Assembly (NCBI GenBank): GCA_021432655.1
Contig: MU271257.1
Span: 98,224 to 118,223, forward strand
Direction of reading: 5' to 3'
From: Atractiella rhizophila
Taxonomy: Eukaryota
DNA: 20,000 nt
Position numbers and translations under genes: made by a program. Every line of letters starts with the position of its first letter. The stretch's first letter is position 1. The notes beneath the pieces are model-generated. The model made no database searches, was not told the origin of the DNA, and was given only the letters and a program-made list of their open reading frames with translations. Positions 1,266 through 20,000 of this stretch are shown piece after piece.

Positions 1266-3331
1266 TTAAAGGCTGTAGTAAAACCCGACCGTATTCTCAA
1301 TGGGTCCCCGACGGCCATTCTTTAACAAGTTGTTTTGGTACTTGAACCAGATCGTGAGTAGTATCACGACGGTAATGAGGAGGAACTGGAAGCCAACGTT
1401 CGCCCAGAGTCCAGGCTATGCGAGTTAATCACGGCTTTCAGTATTTTTGGTTTCGAAGTAGAAGCAAAGGAAACATACAAGATATTTTGGACTGTCTTTG
1501 GAGCGCATGATCAGAGGCGAAATAATCCCTCCCACTCCGCCGAACGCAACGACAATGGCGTTAGACACGGAGCGTTTCGATTGACCCACGATGTTGGTTG
1601 ATTGCTTTACATGAGGGACTTAGTTCATATTGTTTTTAGCAAGCTGACTTGGAAACACTCACATATGCAAGGACGGTGGGGATGTTGACCGTCGCGCCGC
1701 TAATTCCAAGGATAACACCAGCGTAGCGTGCCTGTCGCCATTCCACTGTCAATGTACAATTTCAAAATAGGAAATAGCCCACATCGTTATTGTCCAATGC
1801 GTAGGCAGTCATGAGGAGACCGCAGATAGACAGCAGAGACTGCCCGATGAGGAACAGGTATCGATGACCAAATCTATCCGCACAGTAGGAGAGGATGGTG
1901 GACAAGGTGACTGCCACGATCTATATTAACTATATCAGTCCATCGATTGCTGTTGCATGAAGACAAGAGCGTGCATAGGGAGGAGTCGCGAGCAATTGAG
2001 ACTGTGCCACAGATTTTCCAAACCCTGCCAGAATAATGGGGAGGAAGGATGAATAGGCGTATGTCGACACAGTTGTGCAGCAGAATAAGATCCCGAGCGC
2101 CCAAATCTTGAGATCGAGGAAGTACACTTTGATTTTCTCTATCGTGATTGGGTCGTAGACGGCTGTGGAGAAAAAATCAAATCTCGTACTGAAACGAAGA
2201 TTTGAACACTGACCGTCACCTCTGTCGATGTCAATGCGACGCTTTACGATCTCAGTTTCTTCTGCTGAGAGAAACTTATTCTTGTCCGGGAAATCAACAA
2301 TGAGAGGATAGGCAATCAGTCCTAAGTCAGGGGTGAGAACTGGGAAATCGGGAAATCAGACCCCCTCAGAAGGAATCAGACCTAATCCGATGGTAATAAT
2401 CCCTTCTACTAAAAATATCCAACTCCATCCAGCCAAATCATTCTTGCCTGCCAACGTCGAAAGGCCGTATGCGATGATCGGAGAGAATCCAGAAATCAAG
2501 CTCGCAACTACACCCTTCTTCATATATTTCACAACTGAAACAAATTGGGCCGCTCACTGTTCCAGAAAGCAGCAAGACGAAGCTGCATCTCGCGGCGGGT
2601 GTACCAGGTGCTGATTAAGTAGGCACAGGAAGGAAAGAATCCTGTACCCGTTCGTGGATGAGCTGCTTGCTTTTTCATGCATGGGCGACTAACCGGCCTC
2701 GAGGAATCCCAAGAGTGATCGCAAGCCTGCCAATGTGCGCCACGTTGGGGCATAAGCCATACCAACGAGGATAGATCCCCAAGCAACAGTGATGACGGAG
2801 AGCAGTAGAGAAGGTCCTACTCTCCTCACCACCATGTTGGCAGGTAGCTCGAAGAGGATGTATGGCACGAAGAAGGCGATGATAACAATCCTGTTCTCCC
2901 AACCTTAGTCAACTTTGACGAATGGCGGGAAGACAATGAGGCATACGTATAGCGGTCTCCCACATAAAGAACTAGGTCACGAGCAAGACCAGCAACGTAG
3001 GCGAGTCCAAGGTTGGACCTGTCTACAAACGCAATGATTCAGTCCTAAGCTCATATGAATAACAGGAGCGCGTACCGATGAGGGAGAAGCTGTATAGCAA
3101 CCCCAAGATGGGGAGCAGTCGCAAGTCAACCTTCCGCCTGAACATGCATTAGTTTCCAAGCTCTTCAATCCTCAATGGGTCAAAAGCATACATTGTTCTT
3201 CTTTCCAACACAGGGTCAATAGGCTCTCCTTGACCTACAACCCTAACGCCTGCCTGGTGGTCTCCTTTCCCATCCTCAACCTGGTCAATCTCACCCGTTG
3301 CCTTTTCGTTCAAATCCTCAGAGGATGGCAT
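1266..3331 (-). CDS. MFS transporter, anion:cation symporter (ACS; Dal5/Tna1/allantoate-type) family, multi-exon
   Basis: Spliced translation: MPSSEDLNEK...RKVDLRLLPILGLLYSFSLIDRSNLGLA...FFVPYILFELPANMVVRRVGP...LRSLLGFLEAGFFPSCAYLISTWYTRREMQLRLAAF...GPIENTVGFYYSL*. The DRxNxG, FELP, EAGFFP and WY..E motifs are typical of fungal ACS carriers. Stop TAA at 1266-1268. Confidence 0.92.
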
Positions 3332-4386
3332 GTTGTTTTTTTTTCACGTCAGGTCTTGTTTAGGGCTTTAAGGAGAGCTTCGTGCACCTTCAGACAAGAC
3401 TGTGAGGAAGAGGCGAGGAGGCAGAAGTGGGACAGCGTCGAGCTGCTGATCATTGCGTCTCCCTTTATGCACAGTTTGGTTGGGTTGGACTTCCGTACCG
3501 AGTTCGCCAAGGATAGATAGAGTGCTTAGGGTGAAGTTTGGAACTTGATTCAATATTGTTGGCAAGAGTTCTTGCTAGCTGAAGAAGTCCTTCCTCCGGG
3601 CTCGAGTGCGGGGATTCCAGCACGAATGCAACAAGGAAATGAATTGTGATCGAAATTTGCTGGGTCACACAACTCATGCCAAGTTTATCCCCGTAGCACC
3701 CAAGCAAGAAGGAACACATTGCGACCCATAGAAACATGATAACAAACTCTCTCCGAGAAGGAGATTGAGAAGGGGATTAGGAGCTTCCGGCTAACACTGA
3801 AGATGAATGTGTCCGTCCATCACTGCCCTGACCGTTTCATCCTTCCGTCGTAGCACCTGCTCTCTTGGGCGTTCAACAGCAGTGGTCGGATGAATGTTCC
3901 GAGTGGAAGGGGCAAATTGAGGAAATTGTGAAAGGTCTCAGTAATCATTTTGCGTAGCCAGGCCCGGAGAGGGACACGAAGTTCCGTCAATCCCTGATGA
4001 TTCAGTGCCGCGGATTCTATGGAACTTCGAACAGGCTAGGAATGACCAATGTGTTAGTCAAAAAGGCCAGGACGGGGCAACAGGTCCAATTTTGGCGAAG
4101 ACTTTGGAGGACTACAAGTACATTTCTCAAAATAAATCTCGCAAGATGTTGAAACTAGATTGTCACAACGCCGTCTGCGCGAGACTGTATATCGCACAAA
4201 AAAAAGGAAAGAGGTTATCAAAGTGCTGCAAGGAAACGATCATATCCTACCACTACTCGTGCAGGGGTGCGTGGGACATCTAGGGGTCTGATTCACGATA
4301 GCAGCACTCTATTCTAATGGGAAAGAAAGGAAATAAAGAATCACAACGAGCTTCTCACGTAATAAAAATACAGCCATTGCATCTTT

Positions 4387-5798
4387 CTACGCCGCGACCC
4401 CATTTGCGTGTCCATTGCCATTTGCAAGAGGCTTCGACAACTCCTTCACATTCAACTTGCTCGCTCCCTCCTTCAATCCTTCCAGCGCCAAAATCTCTTC
4501 CAGTCTACCAATCAGAGCCTTCTTGTCTCCCTTGTATGGCCGAAGGGGACGACGAGGAGCACCTCCATAACCTGAAACCTCCTCCAACAACCACTTGTTC
4601 CCACTGATACCTGTCTTGGCAGTGATTCCATCGGCGAGAGAGACGACTTCTTGGAGCTTTTGAGCCTCCGCGAGCGCCTCAGGAGAGTAGGAGGAGACGA
4701 CTTTCTCCACCGCCTTGTTCAGACGCACGACAGTTTTCTACGACGCAAGATTTGAAATCAGTCAGCCAGTCCTTGTTCTCGTAAGTGCTGAGCGAGATGA
4801 AGAAACACAAACAGGGAAGACGTTGGCCAGTCCAGTAATGCAGCCGCCAGCTTTGACGAAAGCGGACGGGAGGAGGAAATCGGCGAAGCCTCCGAGGACG
4901 ACGAAGTTGCCTCGTTTGAGGTTTGTCAGACGAGAGAGCTTGCCAACGCTTCCGCAACTATTCATGCCACCCACATCAAAGCCATCAGTATTTATCAAGT
5001 GAGGGAGAAAACATGAAGGAGCTCACGTAAGCTTGACGCCAACAACGTTCGGTGCCAGGTTGGCGATCTCCTCAATCAGGTCAGAATCCAAATCAATTCC
5101 GGCGCTCGCTCCAGGATCTGGCAAAACGTTCAGCAGACGTACTCCCTTCGACCGACGGAGAGATTCTTACAATTGTAGAGAACGACCTAATGGCTGCCAT
5201 CAGCTAGGAAGTGGGGGAGAAAGGAGTTACGTACAGGGGAAGGAGATGCAGCAGCGACGTCCACAAAGTGATCACGAAGGGACTCTCTGTCTAGTGCTCC
5301 AGCATAATAACCGCCTGTGATGACCATAACGTGGGTCGCACCGAGCTCATGTGCCTCTTTGCAAAGTTGTATCGTCTCTGCGGAGCGAAGAAGCGAAGAA
5401 TCATCAAAATCGGACCTTCGTCGCGTCCATCAAATCTTCACTCACCTAAGGTAGATCCAGCACCAGTTCCAGCGATGAGAGGCACATCGAGCTTTTCTCG
5501 ATCCAACGCTTCTCTGACGGCTCGGAGGACGTCGTTTCTCTCCTGGTGAGTGAGGTGGGACGCTAGAAATCTCCATCGGTCAGCATGCTTTGGAGAAGAG
5601 ATAACTCCACACGGACGCACCTTCTCCCATGCTTCCTCCAACAACCAACCCCAACCCTTCCTTTGCCATTCTGATGGCATGATAAACAGTGGTGGCGACA
5701 TCGACCTCCTCTGTGCCAGGCTCGAAGAAAGTCATGAGGGGGACATAGACCCCCGAAGGGAGTGTGGTTGGGACGTAGACGGTGTTGTTTTGAACCAT
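4387..5798 (-). CDS. gaaC: DHDPS/NAL-family class I aldolase, similar to L-threo-3-deoxy-hexulosonate (2-keto-3-deoxy-L-galactonate) aldolase GaaC/Lga1
   Basis: Spliced: MVQNN...GVYVPLMTFF...GLVVGGSMGEASHLT.QER...PLIAGTGAGSTLETIQLCKEA...VVLYNYPGASAGIDLDSDLI...PNVVGVKLTCGSVGKLSRL...GGFADFLLPS...GCITGLANVFP. Contains the GxxGE motif, the conserved Tyr (LYNxP) and the Schiff-base Lys (GVKLT). Substrate is inferred from family and neighbourhood. Confidence 0.85.
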
Positions 5799-14300: not shown

Positions 14301-14862
14301 GCCTCCTTCCGAACTGTTAGGGAAGATAGGCCAACAAGCGAATGCCAGCATCCCAGGTTTTTCTCAAGCTACTTCGTACTTCCAGTCAACCCAAGGAGTT
14401 GGACGCGACATGCCTTCTCCATCCTATGCTCCTCCGCCTGGCCCACCAAGGGACTTCAACACCCGAGAATTCGCGCCTCCTCCTGGACCACCCAGTGGAT
14501 ATTCTTCGCCTCCCATTCGTCCCCCATCTCCTTCGAGATACGGCGGATCGCCTACTTCTTATGGACCGCCTCAGCCGCAGCATCATCAGCATGGGCACCA
14601 CGAACATCACGAACGCAGGGACTATAGGGGGGAGTCGCTCAGCTACTACGATACGAATACGAATACAAGTTATGCTCCCCCTGGAATGCCCCCACCGGGG
14701 GCACCTCCGTCTGCCATGCCTGATGCCTCTTCCTACGGTGGATATGGAGCGCCTCCCTCTGGCCCTCCTGCTCCCGGTGGATTCCCGGATGCTCAGAACT
14801 ATGGCGGGTATAATCCTCAGTACTATGGTGGAGGACAACAAGGAGGAAAGCCTTGGTATTGA
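11389..14862 (+). CDS. het-c: Het-C domain protein (heterokaryon incompatibility protein C homologue) with signal peptide and Pro/Gly/Tyr-rich tail; about 20 introns
   Basis: MQRTNLLLILSLAILIILVFAPTANAFGAGNIPSFAYLEGKAFRHGDIED...KRVYFGNWLRDYSQAMDVAGL...ERLGVYLPVEHIDNPK...GMKNYIANE...RLLGTALHTLEDLAAHSNWCE...PLVTGTFGSDDFIHS...SDPTHSFLSKDHFNLILNEPAG. These are characteristic Het-C motifs. Last exon ends GGKPWY*. Confidence 0.93.
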
Positions 14863-15210
14863 GAATTGAGACAATGAACGATTGGAATTCTTTACGAGCA
14901 GAATGTTGTAAGGCTTTGAAACAATGTTGATCGAAACAAAGTGTAATTAGGCTCTCTTTTATAGACATTTGATTATCAAATAACTATCTCTCCATATTAT
15001 TCTCCTTGTGCATAAGTCGCTAGTATACTGTGAAACAGTGGACGGTTCAGCATCACGTGAAGATTTTCTGACGCGCATTTCGTTACTGAAACCCAAAAAA
15101 CGACGGCAATGTTGGTGGGACATATCATTTTCTTATCCTGTGGTCAACTTGACATGGCTCATGCACCCACGTCGCTGGAATGCATGCTCCAGTGGCGAAT
15201 TTAGGGAAGC

Positions 15211-15228
15211 TTTTCGCGACGCGTAAAA
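15211..15228. promoter_or_regulatory. Putative composite SCB/MCB (G1/S) element upstream of the kinase gene
   Basis: TTTTCGCG (CGCGAAAA on -) directly abuts ACGCGT, followed by AAAA, about 350 bp upstream of ATG 15575. An extra ACGCG core lies at 15071-15075. Confidence 0.4.
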
Positions 15229-15574
15229 CTCCAACTGCTTGTTTTGGTATGATCTCATTTGGAGAGCGGGACATGGGAAAGGGGGGAAGCTTTGACCCTA
15301 TAAAACCACCAAGTCTTGGTTTCTCGCCACCATTCTGCTCGTCTTTCCGATATCTCTGTTGGTGCTTGGTGCTCCTCCGTTGCTTCGTTTTCTGCTCAAT
15401 CTGCCCGTCAAGTCTGAAGGACTGGGCGATCGAGCGATAGAGCATATCAACATCTTCCTTCTTCGCTCTTTTGAGATCACACTACTTTACTTCGTATCAT
15501 AGTCGTATAACATATCATTTTCTCGAGACTCCGCACAGCAACAACACGACCCTCTTCTCCTCAAGTCGAACAAG

Positions 15575-18500
15575 ATGTCTCGAGTTCCTCAACCGTACAA
15601 GNNNNNNNNNNNNNNNNNNNNNNNNNNNNNNNNNNNNNNNNNNNNNNNNNNNNNNNNNNNNNNNNNNNNNNNNNNNNNNNNNNNNNNNNNNNNNNNNNNN
15701 NNNNNNNNNNNNNNNNNNNNNNNNNNNNNNNNNNNNNNNNNNNNNNNNNNNNNNNNNNNNNNNNNNNNNNNNNNNNNNNNNNNNNNNNNNNNNNNNNNNN
15801 NNNNNNNNNNNNNNNNNNNNNNNNNNNNNNNNNNNNNNNNNNNNNNNNNNNNNNNNNNNNNNNNNNNNNNNNNNNNNNNNNNNNNNNNNNNNNNNNNNNN
15901 NNNNNNNNNNNNNNNNNNNNNNNNNNNNNNNNNNNNNNNNNNNNNNNNNNNNNNNNNNNNNNNNNNNNNNNNNNNNNNNNNNNNNNNNNNNNNNNNNNNN
16001 NNNNNNNNNNNNNNNNNNNNNNNNNNNNNNNNNNNNNNNNNNNNNNNNNNNNNNNNNNNNNNNNNNNCAACCGCTTGGTCCTCCCGACCCCTCTCGCGCA
16101 GGTTCGAACACACCCCTCAATCCAGCTGACTATCATTACCCGAACTAGTGACGGCACCACCGACAGACTCTTCCTCCCCCTCCCCTGTAGCCTGCAAGAC
16201 CGTAGAGGCCTTACCAGCTCTACGCACATGCAAAGCTAACGGGCGGCAGTGCTAAAACCCACCTACTCGCCCTGCATCAGCTTCACCACGGGCAGAGGTA
16301 AAGATCTGCAGTACACAACTCTTTGTCGCCCTTCTCTTGTTCACTACTGCTTGGGTCTCGCGCTCCGGGCTATAGAAGGAGAAGCAACTTTAAAAGGTTC
16401 AAAGAGCGAGCTATGAAGCAGTTGTTCTTTATTTTCTGGAAAAGGGTTAAAAAGGATAGGCTACCTCTAACAATCGCCATTGAAAATGGACTTTACTTCT
16501 TTCTGTTTGAGGAAACTCTAGTTGCGTAGATGTTATTGGGAGAGACCTCCTAACATGGTGTTTTGGGACTCTAACCGCTCTTATAGCTGCAGCTACAGAA
16601 GTTAAGATAGCTACCCGGAAAGTTAGAGAACGCCTCAGCCGCCGAGGTTCATGAACCCCGGTTGAGCTCCTCCAGCAGAGCACTTGGTTCCTACTCGTGC
16701 TTACGGAAGGTAGACAGAGTTATTGCCTGGCAATGCTACCCCCTTGACTCCCCTTCGCTTTACCTCACTTTGCGTGCCATTAGGCAAAGAACCCCAGTTG
16801 GAGGTTGTAGGAAGACTAGTTCAGGACATGGTAAAGACCTTCAAGTGCCCCGTACTATTTAAAGGGTTGGAACTGGAATCTATTCTCCCAAGACTATAAG
16901 AGTAGCAGCTTACCTTCAGCCGGATGCGTGGTCACGTTCTTCAAATAATTGCTCCACTTGCTTGTAACTTCCATCGTTCCCTCTCTTGCGTGGTTGCTCT
17001 TCGCGCTTCTCTTACTATGGTGTCCTGGTCTATAGCCTTCTTCTCGGTACTATCACGCATGGGACGAGGCGGTTTAAGTTGAAGTTAAGCTCTACTCTAC
17101 TTCCCGCTGCTTGTCTCTGCTAAAGCCCTGACCGCATCACTCCTGATGGCGTCGACCAGAGGTTGTTAAATAAGAGAGAAAGGTTACGACGGTAGGGTTT
17201 TAGTCGCTAGAACTACAAAGATAGGGACAAGGTATTTTATCGTAGTAATGTTGAATGTGAAGGTTCCGTCTTGCACCTTTCCCTCAGTTTCCCCTGTTCT
17301 CCATGATTGAACAGTTCGTCTTCCAAGAGTCCGAATTCCAGTGCTACCGTTTATAATTTGGACACCGTCATCAGCTACGGCCTTTATTCAACAACCTTCA
17401 TAACTTCGCGAAGTAGAAGAGGATTAGACGGCGCTCTCTGTTCTATCAGTTTGTCGAGGGGCGGAAGGTGTATAAGGTACTACTCTATGGACCTGCTTCC
17501 GGGCTTGAACAGTTATACATGTGTATCTCCCCTAGTCCCTGCGGCCCTTATCTCTCCTCTCTGTTTGTTAAGCGAGGGGCAAAGGGTGTGCAGCATGTTC
17601 GCTTCCTACAAGCCTACAAGCTATTCGAAGTACTAGTGTTAGAGAGCGATAATTGTGTTGTTCTGGTTAAGCAGTCTCCTTTCTCTCTGAACCCTTTTCT
17701 ATTATCCTTGCTTGGAGTTACGGGGTTGTAGTAGAATAGCCGAAAGCGCGGCCGAAGTAAATAGCTGTAAGAGCTTAAGTTGTCGTCGACGGACCCCTGC
17801 TAGAAGCAAGACGGGAGTACCGGTGATCCAGCTTCAGGAGGCGACGCCGCAGAAAGGATCATACGTCCACAAGGAGAGAGAGCCTACTTTCGTTGAAGTG
17901 GATCCTTCTACTACTCCCGCTCCAGTTATACCCATTCATATTCCGCACGTGGAAGACGCGGCCATGCAGAGGTTTTTTCACGATATTGTCGACCAACTCC
18001 AGACTATGTCTGTTAAGACAGCTTCCGTGGGGTCTGCTTCTCCGTCTCTCTTCGGCGGTAGCACCACGCCCTCTTCAATGGACTCCCCTATGCTTGGTGA
18101 AGGGAGTGCCTGTGTTGGTGGTAATCATTCTCCAGCTGTTGGGAGTGGAGCTGGCGAGAAAGCAGTTGATAACAGATTTGAGGATGCGGAGGGAGACTAC
18201 AGCATGGTGGACGTTGAGGCTCTGAACGCAGCAAAAGTCAAGCTTCCGGAGCGTCCTCCTCTCTCAGCTCGCCCAACCGCCCTTCATCGCACGTCTACGC
18301 GAACGACGAGCTCAAATCCGAGTCGTCAGTCTTCTGGTTCATCTGTCATTGGCACTCGAGGAGGTCGAGGCGTATCTGGACAAGCTCCCACCACTTCCGT
18401 GGCGATGCTGAACCCTGGTTCTCTCCCCACTAAACCTCAGCTCGTTGCTGTTGGCCAGCAGCAGCACGTTAGGTACTCGATCGACAATAAAGAGAATCAG

Positions 18501-19408
18501 TTCGCTGCTGGTAAAAGGTCGAGCATACAGCAGGAAGGGCCAAAAGGCATTCTGTCACCCACGAAGAACGAGAAGCGGACGACATTGGGATTGGCTATTC
18601 AATCCGTGGAGGTGCCTAGGTTTGACGGTAGCGAAAAGTCTGGAGGTCTGTTGAAGAAGAGGAAGGGTGCGTCACAACATTTCGTTTCGCTCGAAAGAAC
18701 CTGAGTCTGACGGTTTGTCGCAGCAGTTCCCGACACAACTAACTCCCCTATTCTTAGCGATCCCATGAGCCCAAGACAAAGCTGGTTCGCCAACCTCTTT
18801 AACTGGAAGCAACTGGTACTTTCCATCTATCTTACTCAGAGCATGTACTAATGATAATGGGCGGGAATAATAACAGAGCCACACGCTCCTTTCGACTGAC
18901 AACATCTCTGCGACGAGGAGCGAGTGCAAGAAGATCCTTACTTCCTTTGGCGTTGTCGTCATTGTCGAAAATAGCGAAGGAAATGCTGTCTTAAAATGCA
19001 GAGTCGAGGAGATAGTTGGTTCGTCTTCCCTTGCTGCTTCATTCTTCCTTTCCTTCTAAACGTCTGGTATGTGGAAAAGATTCGAACTCGAACAGCTCGG
19101 TCCTTAAACCTGTCAAGTTTCGTGTCGACTTCACCTCTCATAACACTGTCAGTCCGACTCTGAGTGGACACCCATCGCCTAAGCTGAATGAACCGAAGCA
19201 CATCACCTGCCTTAACATGGTGATGGAAAAAGGAGCGCATTCCACCTTTAGAGCCATCTACAATCGTCTGAAGAAGGAGTGGGAGTATGTCTTTCTTTTC
19301 ATCCATCTCTTCAATCGTTGATTGATTGACATTCGGCGCAGACTTGATACTGGTCGCTCTCCTGTGATAGCGCAGGGCTTCCAGCCTGAAGCTATGATGA
19401 TGGTTTGA
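15575..19408 (+). CDS. gin4: Nim1-related Ser/Thr kinase (Gin4/Hsl1/Kcc4/Cdr2 family) with C-terminal KA1-like domain; interrupted by an N gap and a mirror-reversed block
   Basis: Probable start MSRVPQPYK before the gap (start is tentative). The kinase and UBA-like region is recovered by reading 17806->16068 backwards ([57 protein letters not shown]). Forward exons from 17807 include SPRQSWFANLFNWK, KPVKFRVDF and EKGAHSTFRAIYNRLKKEWE. TGA at 19406-19408. Exact orthologue within the family is not resolved. Confidence 0.82.
15602..16067. other. Assembly gap (466 N)
   Basis: Run of N. It is expected to hold the kinase N-terminus including the glycine-rich loop, which is not seen elsewhere in the window. 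Confidence 0.99.
16068..17806. other. 1,739-bp block that is reversed but not complemented (mirror-image sequence) encoding kinase subdomains II-XI and downstream region
   Basis: Reading the + strand right-to-left without complementing gives kinase exons separated by 8 GT...AG introns. HRDLKPEN at 17347->17324, DFG at 17203->17195, [12 protein letters not shown] at 17158->17123. Confidence 0.95.
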
Positions 19409-19736
19409 TCCTTTCTGTGTAAGCTTGGTCGACTTTCTGGCTTCGATGAGTTTTGTAAGACTCAGAAGTTATGTACGGCTGATTGTGAAACAATTTCTTT
19501 TGTCAAGTATTGATTCTTGTTAACTACAACATCCTCCTAATGCGACTACACTTGATATCCTATGATACACATCGAACAAAATAGTCAAACAAGTGGGTTG
19601 AAAGAAGTACAAACATGCGAATGCAGTGATGAGTTCTAGAAAATGCAGTTGTGTCCGTTGGTGATAAATGAATACTGAAATGTGGTCAAGTCCATTATGC
19701 AAAGCTGTCCATCTCAGTCGCAGTCATTACGACGAA

Positions 19737-20000
19737 TCAATCGCGCCTGGTAATCCATCCCTGTGCAACAGCACGTCTGATATCCCACCTCCACTTCTCA
19801 CGTTCAATCATTGCCAATGTCTCCTCCCTCTCCCTCCCACTCAAGTAGGTTTTAACTATATCTCGATAGTAGACGGGCTCCGAAACATCGTCATAATACA
19901 TTGATTTATGTGCTTCATGCGAAATAGGAAGAGGGGAGAGGTGGATAGGGTGTTCTGGAGAGGAGTACCAAAGCGCATGAAGTGCCTTTGCTTGGAGCGG
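19737..20000 (-). CDS. 3' end of an unidentified protein-coding gene (runs off the window)
   Basis: Stop-free frame from the window end: PLQAKALHALWYSSPEHPIHLSPLPISHEAHKSMYYDDVSEPVYYRDIVKTYLSGREREETLAMIEREKWRWDIRRAVAQGWITRRD* (TGA at 19737-19739), convergent with the kinase gene. No family recognised. Confidence 0.5.
   Translation of the reverse strand, partial: PLQAKALHALWYSSPEHPIHLSPLPISHEAHKSMYYDDVSEPVYYRDIVKTYLSGREREETLAMIEREKWRWDIRRAVAQGWITRRD

What the first reader, a model, noticed from the sequence alone, without database searches (positions are those of the whole stretch)
16068..17806. A kinase domain written backwards: 1.74-kb block reversed without complementation
Seen: this stretch has no credible ORF in six frames. 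Read right-to-left on the same strand with no complementing, it gives KIVPRQLLLNSRMSINEAGAKADKMMLG(IE)/REIVIMKLIEHPNILRLYDVWETGSEL/YLIMEYVEGGELFDYLVSRGRL...[103 protein letters not shown]...VDPKKRIT/MEGIRAHPWF...ILANLRVLW...KNWEKVFYFLL...RALPSPPGSP, with 8 GT-AG introns. The reversed end (...CCA AC at 16068) joins forward base 17807 in frame (ACC AAG ACG GGA GTA = SPTKTGVPVIQLQEATP), restoring one continuous gene; the right boundary could be up to 6 nt further (17812). Established: genuine inversions yield reverse complements, and no known replication or repair process yields a mirror copy. Inference: because the block abuts an N gap, it is most likely a gap-extension sequence pasted in with a faulty orientation step. 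It hides a conserved cell-cycle kinase from annotation. If it were real DNA it would be unprecedented.
Basis: partly seen in the sequence, partly recalled or inferred. Interest (0 to 1): 0.9.

Follow-up and report, generated by a model that had tools for sequence, protein, structure and literature searches.

The report
Kinase gene stored backwards: assembly artefact
A 1.7-kb stretch next to an assembly gap in this fungal scaffold is written in reverse letter order without complementing, which is a data-handling error and not real DNA, and it hides the catalytic half of a conserved cell-cycle kinase gene from annotation.

Summary
Block 16068-17806, directly right of a 466-N gap, matches no protein as deposited or as a reverse complement. 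Reversed without complementing, it gives a collinear Hsl1/Gin4-type kinase domain: 9 of 9 full-length homologues hit it, E down to 7e-121. A public Atractiella rhizophila protein matches it exactly over 205 residues in four exons and runs on into forward base 17808. An annotation-free k-mer test also says the block runs backwards.

It is not real DNA. In 4 of 4 sequencing runs no contig covers 15604-17806. Three contigs from two DNA runs and one spliced RNA run bridge 15601 to 17807 exactly, with other letters between: 2139 in the DNA contigs, against 466 N + 1739 in the window.

A public 384-residue gene model is an exact spliced product of the deposited window. It starts at the first ATG after the junction (17964), so the error truncated the annotation.

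The likely cause is a gap-extension or contig-orientation step that reversed without complementing, or complemented without reversing. The program is unknown. Biological interest is low. There is some value for database quality control.

The parts
15575..15601 (+). ATG and first 9 codons of the kinase gene, cut off by the gap
   Evidence: The sequence read and the ORF list show it. Contigs of X1, X2 and X3 align up to 15601. The X3 RNA contig has about 1553 letters between 15601 and 17807 (my subtraction), and 1553 mod 3 = 2, which keeps this ATG in frame with the codon that ends at 17807.
15602..16067 (.). Assembly gap of 466 N
   Evidence: One search gives the N run. The DNA contigs of X1 and X2 hold 2139 letters between 15601 and 17807. 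If the block is 1739 nt there too, about 400 real letters are missing (inference).
16068..17806 (.). Block stored reversed without complementing. Read from 17806 down to 16068 on the + strand it is the kinase-domain part of the gene.
   Evidence: protein matches only when flipped. (k-mer direction test negative here only). (no contig covers it; three contigs bridge it with other letters).
16684..17806 (.). Approximate extent of the protein kinase catalytic domain (from just after the conserved lysine strand to the domain end), read right to left
   Evidence: Homologue residues about 56-300 lie within Pfam Pkinase in P0003-P0006. They align to flipped 16069 to about 17190. P0001 residues 3-36 match the end of Pkinase.
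17721..17721 (.). One-letter frame break in the mirror reading (flipped 16153), 86 nt from the true gap-side tip of the block
   Evidence: The frame changes between the first coding stretch and the two codons before intron 1. It is not known whether this is a base-call error or real.
16303..16353 (.). Intron 8 of the mirror reading (51 nt). The other seven lie at deposited 16455-16509, 16713-16776, 16923-16992, 17063-17113, 17226-17309, 17490-17567 and 17648-17714.
   Evidence: One search gives lengths 67, 78, 84, 51, 70, 64, 55 and 51, total 520, leaving 1219 exonic. All eight are GT..AG when flipped. The boundaries of introns 7 and 8 were moved 1 nt by eye using the letters.
17807..18665 (+). 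Forward continuation of the same exon. The first base completes the codon begun in the block.
   Evidence: Contigs of X1, X2 and X3 start matching exactly at 17807.
17964..19408 (+). Extent of the truncated public gene model P0002 (384 residues, 6 exons; Fungal_KA1 domain at residues 251-360)
   Evidence: 384 of 384 residues map exactly, starting at the first ATG of the deposited open frame 17691-18704. Fungal_KA1, E 6.6e-12. RNA joints 18665/18726, 18814/18876, 19017/19079 and 19284/19342.

Best explanation
The block is a computer artefact in the assembled scaffold. The real sequence between the gap and base 17807 was written in reverse letter order without complementing.

The likeliest cause is either of two faults that give the same string:
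- The contig that began at 17807 was extended leftwards into the gap, and the new letters were prepended in the order they were found (outwards from the contig end).
- A minus-oriented piece was complemented but not reversed.

The organism itself, an Atractiella-like fungus of the Pucciniomycotina, carries an ordinary Hsl1/Gin4-type kinase gene here:
- ATG at 15575.
- About 400 bases still missing in the gap.
- A kinase domain with eight short introns.
- A long linker and a C-terminal KA1 domain.

Shown: the mirror reading, its absence from reads, the exact boundary, and the truncated annotation. Inferred: the software step.
For: 1. Protein matches appear only when the block is flipped. P0001 residues 1-205 are exact in four exons and 207-406 are exact on the forward side. 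9 of 9 full-length homologues align with E down to 7e-121, against 0 of 9 as deposited or as a reverse complement.

2. The direction test needs no annotation. With Markov chains of order 1-4 trained on the rest of the window, 10 of 10 other tiles score +8 to +58 for the deposited direction and the block scores -34 to -61. On 290-nt tiles, 5 of 5 in the block are negative.

3. Reads agree. The best runs hold 0.46, 0.45 and 0.42 of the sampled words of 16068-20000, below the 0.56 that the forward flank alone makes up. Depth is zero over 15604-17806 in 4 of 4 runs. One contig each in X1 (3239 nt), X2 (3852 nt) and X3 (3246 nt, spliced) joins 15601 to 17807. The X1 and X2 contig coordinates give 2139 other letters between.

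4. Splicing fits. There are eight GT..AG introns of 51-84 nt when flipped, and 8 of 8 donors have GT at positions 1-2 and 5-6 (the letters of two donors by eye). 3 of 4 RNA-confirmed forward introns of the same gene show the same donor pattern.

5. The left edge of the block is exactly the gap edge. A public gene model that is an exact product of the window starts at the first ATG after the junction.
Against: The letters of the bridging contigs were not shown to me. Identity of the real sequence to the flipped block is direct only for the 615 coding bases covered by P0001, and that only at protein level. For the rest it rests on homologues at 41-78% identity.

The two DNA runs laid (X1, X2) differ from the window by scattered substitutions and small indels. 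They are therefore a close strain and not the window's own isolate.

The near-identical run X3 is RNA. No DNA reads of the window's own isolate were examined.

The software step is not documented anywhere I could search. No whole assembly is held, so I could not look for further cases.
Confidence: 0.93

Rival explanations
1. The public record is correct, and the reversal arose later, in a copy or processing step, or as a deliberate control placed in the window given to this scan.
For: Reversing without complementing is a standard way to make decoy sequence (passages read in PMC3531169, and in bioRxiv 10.64898/2026.04.14.718546). I could not see the public nucleotide record. No whole genome is held.
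Against: The block starts exactly at the gap edge. A public protein that is an exact product of this window starts at the first ATG right of the junction instead of running up into the kinase exons. That start is what a gene caller would give if the upstream letters were already unreadable or absent at annotation.
Confidence: 0.05
2. The mirror-order block is real DNA in the window's own isolate, made by an unknown process that reverses a duplex without exchanging strands.
For: No DNA run of the very same isolate was laid. X1 and X2 are a close strain.
Against: X3 matches the window's flanks with 0-1 differing letters per piece. Its RNA contig crosses from 15601 to 17807 with about 1553 other letters and puts nothing on the deposited block. 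That length keeps the reading frame from the ATG at 15575.

A reversed gene could give neither the spliced, in-frame kinase message nor a working kinase. No replication or repair reaction is known that reverses polarity (established knowledge, recalled).
Confidence: 0.005
3. It is an ordinary inversion (reverse complement) or an unrelated insertion that differs between strains.
For: Contigs of other strains carry different letters here.
Against: With the block reverse-complemented in place, 0 of 9 homologues and no further part of P0001 match inside it. An unrelated insertion would not encode the missing kinase exons letter for letter when read backwards. No second copy, forward or mirrored, lies elsewhere in the window.
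Confidence: 0.005

Closest known systems
Synthetic reversed locus HPRT1R (Camellato et al., Nature 2024, PMC11006607; abstract and passages read)
   Same: The same operation on the letters: reversed but not complemented. It keeps composition and repeats but ablates coding information.
   Different: HPRT1R was designed on purpose and built as physical DNA. Here the reversed string exists only in the assembly file, and the organism has the normal order.
Reversed-not-complemented genome sequence used as decoy or negative control (Dfam, PMC3531169, figure legend read; RRE preprint 10.64898/2026.04.14.718546, one passage read)
   Same: The string operation is the same, and so is the result that homology searches find nothing in it.
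   Different: Those decoys are deliberate and labelled. This block sits unlabelled inside a genome scaffold and breaks a gene.
Chromosomal inversion or mis-oriented contig (reverse complement)
   Same: A block whose order is flipped relative to its flanks, next to a scaffold gap.
   Different: A true inversion or mis-orientation is a reverse complement and still translates on the other strand. Tested here and not met.
Hsl1/Gin4/Kcc4 (Nim1-related, septin-associated) kinases of fungi: the hidden gene
   Same: Homologues have a Pkinase domain followed by a C-terminal Fungal_KA1 domain. The best solved relative of homologue P0003 is yeast HSL1 (8a3t_S, E 7.9e-115), then BRSK2.
   Different: The window's copy lacks its first roughly 110 codons (in the gap), is stored backwards over the kinase domain, and shows a 1-nt frame break. 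Which of Hsl1, Gin4 or Kcc4 it is orthologous to was not tested.
Mirror repeats / H-DNA-forming tracts (recalled, not from a call)
   Same: Mirror symmetry of letters on one strand.
   Different: A mirror repeat has both arms present and is usually a short homopurine tract. Here there is no forward partner in the window, and the block does not match itself in mirror.

Membership tests
Reversed-without-complement data artefact | Sequence matches known proteins only after reversal without complementing | tested here: met
   matches in the flipped version only, none as deposited or reverse-complemented.
Reversed-without-complement data artefact | Deposited letter order absent from independent reads, which carry other sequence at the same place | tested here: met
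   zero cover in 4 of 4 runs. Contigs of 3 runs bridge 15601 to 17807 with other letters between.
Reversed-without-complement data artefact | Independent sequence equals the flipped block at nucleotide level over its whole length | not testable with these tools
   The intervening contig letters were not returned (table 5c empty). Only protein-level identity over 205 residues is available.
Genuine inversion (reverse complement) | Block translates or aligns on the opposite strand | tested here: not met
Hsl1/Gin4/Kcc4-type kinase | Serine/threonine kinase catalytic domain of the AMPK-related (CAMKL) type | tested here: met
   In the flipped reading only. It is collinear with the Pkinase regions of P0003-P0006, P0008, P0010, P0012, P0021 and P0043. 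Catalytic-loop and activation-segment motifs are visible.
Hsl1/Gin4/Kcc4-type kinase | C-terminal Fungal_KA1 domain | tested here: met
   P0002, an exact product of the window, has PF16797 at E 6.6e-12, 45.6 bits, cut-off 27.
Hsl1/Gin4/Kcc4-type kinase | Orthology to one named yeast member, and septin or bud-neck function | not tested
   No tree was built. Only the best PDB match of a homologue to HSL1 is available.
Mirror repeat | A forward arm paired with the mirrored arm | tested here: not met
   no blastn hit of the flipped or deposited block to the rest of the window or to itself in mirror.

The most novel reading that the evidence does not exclude
The fault is systematic. The same assembly or gap-closing step may have written every leftward extension (or every minus-oriented piece) of this assembly, and perhaps of other assemblies from the same pipeline, in mirror order.

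If so, many gap-adjacent blocks in public fungal genomes would be unreadable, and genes there would be falsely truncated or scored as lost.

The k-mer direction test used here could find such blocks without annotation.
Probability: 0.3. Interest if true: 0.35.

Novelty: not a real feature. Interest (0 to 1): 0.15.

Why it matters
Biologically there is nothing new. The organism has a normal Hsl1/Gin4-type kinase gene.

The practical point is data quality:
- The error removes the whole catalytic domain of a conserved cell-cycle kinase from the gene model. The public model is 384 residues; the full-length homologues used are 793-1153 residues.
- Comparative studies could therefore score a kinase-dead or truncated protein, or a gene loss.
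- This class of error escapes the usual checks, which look only for reverse complements.
- Four literature searches found deliberate uses of reversed-not-complemented sequence but no report of it as an assembly artefact.
- A simple direction statistic flags it cleanly.

Tried and rejected
- **Whole genome**: none is held, so I could not scan for other mirror blocks.
- **The listing of cluster members** on P0001-P0006: the database was switched off. The sources and names of P0002 and the homologues stay unknown.
- **The search for related loci** with P0001 in metagenome contigs: 63 pattern matches, none confirmed. This gave no independent DNA.
- **Earlier findings**: nothing relevant.
- **First intron search**: the path enumeration was cut at 3001 paths and gave nonsense models, so I discarded it.
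- **** failed at intron 1 because of the 1-nt frame break that one search then showed.
- ****: rows after residue 417 are spurious 4-residue seeds and were ignored. One search covers that part.
- ****: its printed spliced translation started one base off and is not used. Only its intron table is used.
I set those boundaries by eye.
- **Pfam on the 11 longest raw ORFs** elsewhere in the window: 0 families. This is uninformative in an intron-rich genome.
- **PMC11602793**: its 'reversed' GenBank entries appear to be reverse-strand records, not clearly mirror-order ones.

Full report
**What is in the window**

- An N run of 466 lies at 15602-16067, and the block in question, 1739 nt, follows it directly at 16068-17806.
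- Left of the gap there is an ATG at 15575 followed by nine codons that run into the N run.
- Right of the block an open frame runs on to 18704.

**The mirror reading is real**

- As deposited, the six frames of the block have 19-39 stops each, and the longest open stretches are 40-109 codons. Reversed without complementing, three frames carry the successive parts of a protein kinase domain.
- A search with the forward part (17808-18701) found one public protein, P0001. It is a 643-residue hypothetical protein of Atractiella rhizophila with a Fungal_KA1 domain and the last 34 positions of Pkinase.
- tblastn places P0001 residues 1-206 only on the window with the block flipped, not on the deposited window or on a version with the block reverse-complemented.
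- Exact matching gives residues 1-26, 27-94, 95-127 and 128-205 on four exons of the flipped block. There is one differing residue at the junction codon, then residues 207-406 on forward 17808-18407. Later rows of that call are artefacts of my seeding and are ignored.
- A full HMMER search with P0001 gave 826 relatives. I used nine full-length ones (793-1153 residues). Four of them (P0003-P0006) were scanned against Pfam: all four have Pkinase, and P0003 and P0006 also show Fungal_KA1 below Pfam's cut-off.
- All nine align their kinase domains collinearly to flipped 16069-17516, with E from 1e-70 to 7e-121. None aligns inside the block as deposited or reverse-complemented.
- In the flipped window a single 379-codon open frame crosses the junction.

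**A test that needs no annotation**

- Markov chains of order 1-4 were trained on the rest of the window, both strands. They score the deposited direction above the reversed one in 10 of 10 other tiles (+8 to +58 log units). They score it below in the block (-34 to -61).
- With 290-nt tiles, 5 of 5 inside the block are negative and 5 of 5 left of the gap are positive. Right of the block, 5 of 7 are positive and two are near zero (-0.2 and -2.3). The last 289 nt of the block were not tiled.
- The block has no second copy, forward or mirrored, in the window and is not a mirror palindrome.

**Anatomy when flipped**

- There are nine exon pieces and eight GT..AG introns of 67, 78, 84, 51, 70, 64, 55 and 51 nt, total 520, leaving 1219 exonic bases.
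- The first intron was set, the next four were chosen by homologue score, and the last three come from P0001. I moved two boundaries 1 nt by eye on the letters.
- All eight donors have GT at positions 1-2 and 5-6. So do 3 of the 4 forward introns of the same gene that RNA contigs confirm.
- One flaw remains: a single extra letter at flipped 16153 (deposited 17721) breaks the frame just before intron 1.

**It is not in the organism**

- For 16068-20000, the best runs hold 0.46, 0.45 and 0.42 of 399 sampled words. No run holds half, while the forward flank alone is 0.56 of the stretch.
- I laid X1-X4 on 14500-20000. Depth is zero in every bin from 15604 to 17627 in all four runs. It resumes within the bin 17628-17811 in X1, X2 and X3, whose contigs start matching at 17807. 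X4 has no cover until the bin 18180-18363.
- X1 record 3 aligns 15108-15601 at its positions 1-498 and 17807-18408 at 2638-3239. X2 record 10 does the same (1-580 and 2720-3852). Both therefore hold 2139 other letters where the window has 466 N plus 1739.
- X3 record 18 is spliced, with four GT..AG joints in the forward part, so it is RNA. It also joins 15601 to 17807, with 95 letters on the left side.
- By subtraction (3246 - 1598 - 95), X3 has about 1553 letters between. 1553 mod 3 = 2, which is what keeps the ATG at 15575 in frame with the codon completed by 17807. This is my arithmetic and is a one-in-three coincidence at worst.
- X3 matches the window's flanks almost perfectly (21 of 26 laid pieces at 99% or more).
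- X1 and X2 carry scattered differences. Those at 18409 and 18442 fit two of the residues by which P0001 differs from the window's own translation (my reading of the codons). P0001 therefore probably comes from that close strain, and the window from the X3-like one.

**Effect on annotation**

- P0002, a 384-residue public protein found, maps with 384 of 384 residues exact onto the deposited window in six exons.
- It starts at 17964, the first ATG of the deposited open frame 17691-18704.
- It has only the KA1 domain. The kinase half of the gene is lost from the model.

**What the gene is**

- The best solved relative of homologue P0003 is yeast HSL1 (8a3t_S, E 7.9e-115), then BRSK2, Ssp2, AMPK and MARK kinases.
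- With the KA1 domain this is a Hsl1/Gin4/Kcc4-type kinase. Which orthologue it is was not tested.

**Cause**

- The block sits in the right place and has a plausible length. Only its letter order is reversed, its left edge is the gap edge, and its right edge is an otherwise unremarkable point inside an exon.
- That pattern is what one gets if a contig starting at 17807 was extended leftwards and the new letters were prepended in walking order. Complementing a minus-oriented piece without reversing it gives the same result.
- The frame break lies 86 nt from the true outer tip of the block, where extensions are weakest.
- All of this paragraph is inference. I could not see the assembly history or the rest of the genome.

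**Literature**

- Searches for several phrasings of 'reversed but not complemented' found only deliberate uses.
- These are the synthetic HPRT1R locus (PMC11006607, abstract and passages) and decoy sequence for false-positive control (PMC3531169, one figure legend; bioRxiv 10.64898/2026.04.14.718546, one passage).
- I found no report of this as an assembly artefact. The library lacks most subscription journals, so this is weak evidence of absence.

**Verdict**

- It is not a biological feature, so biological interest is low.
- The worthwhile follow-up is to correct the record and to scan the assembly for more such blocks.

Noticed in passing
window 17721 (flipped 16153): A single extra letter breaks the reading frame of the mirror-read kinase just before its first intron. 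It may be a base-call error at the weak outer tip of the extension, or it may be real.
   Followed up: partly
window 16068 (junction codon) and 18409, 18442: P0001 differs from the window's translation at the junction codon (residue 206), at residue 407, and in a nearby stretch. The X1/X2 contigs carry substitutions at 18409 and 18442 that fit two of these differences (my reading of the codons). P0001 thus probably belongs to a close strain. The junction-base difference could be a strain difference or an error in the first extended base.
   Followed up: partly
P0001 start, flipped 17020 = deposited 16854: The related strain's public model P0001 is itself cut short. It starts at an internal methionine in the last part of the kinase domain, although that strain's DNA contigs are continuous there. 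This looks like a separate annotation shortfall.
   Followed up: no
window 19148-19198: P0002 removes this stretch as an intron (17 codons inside the KA1 domain). The X3 RNA contig reads straight through 19079-19284, and P0001 keeps the residues. The public model is probably wrong here as well.
   Followed up: partly
window 15601, loose end of X4: A contig of a more distant relative (95-99% alike) runs on for 59 letters beyond 15601 into the gap. The 30 letters shown read in frame without a stop (by eye), which fits a coding exon continuing into the gap (table 7).
   Followed up: no
window 14500-14867 and 19652-20000: The RNA-like run X3 has contigs of very high word depth at both ends of the laid stretch (about 1100-1250 and 3650-5000, against 58 for the kinase gene). 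This hints at strongly expressed neighbouring genes. The tool warns that contig depth is a poor measure of expression.
   Followed up: no
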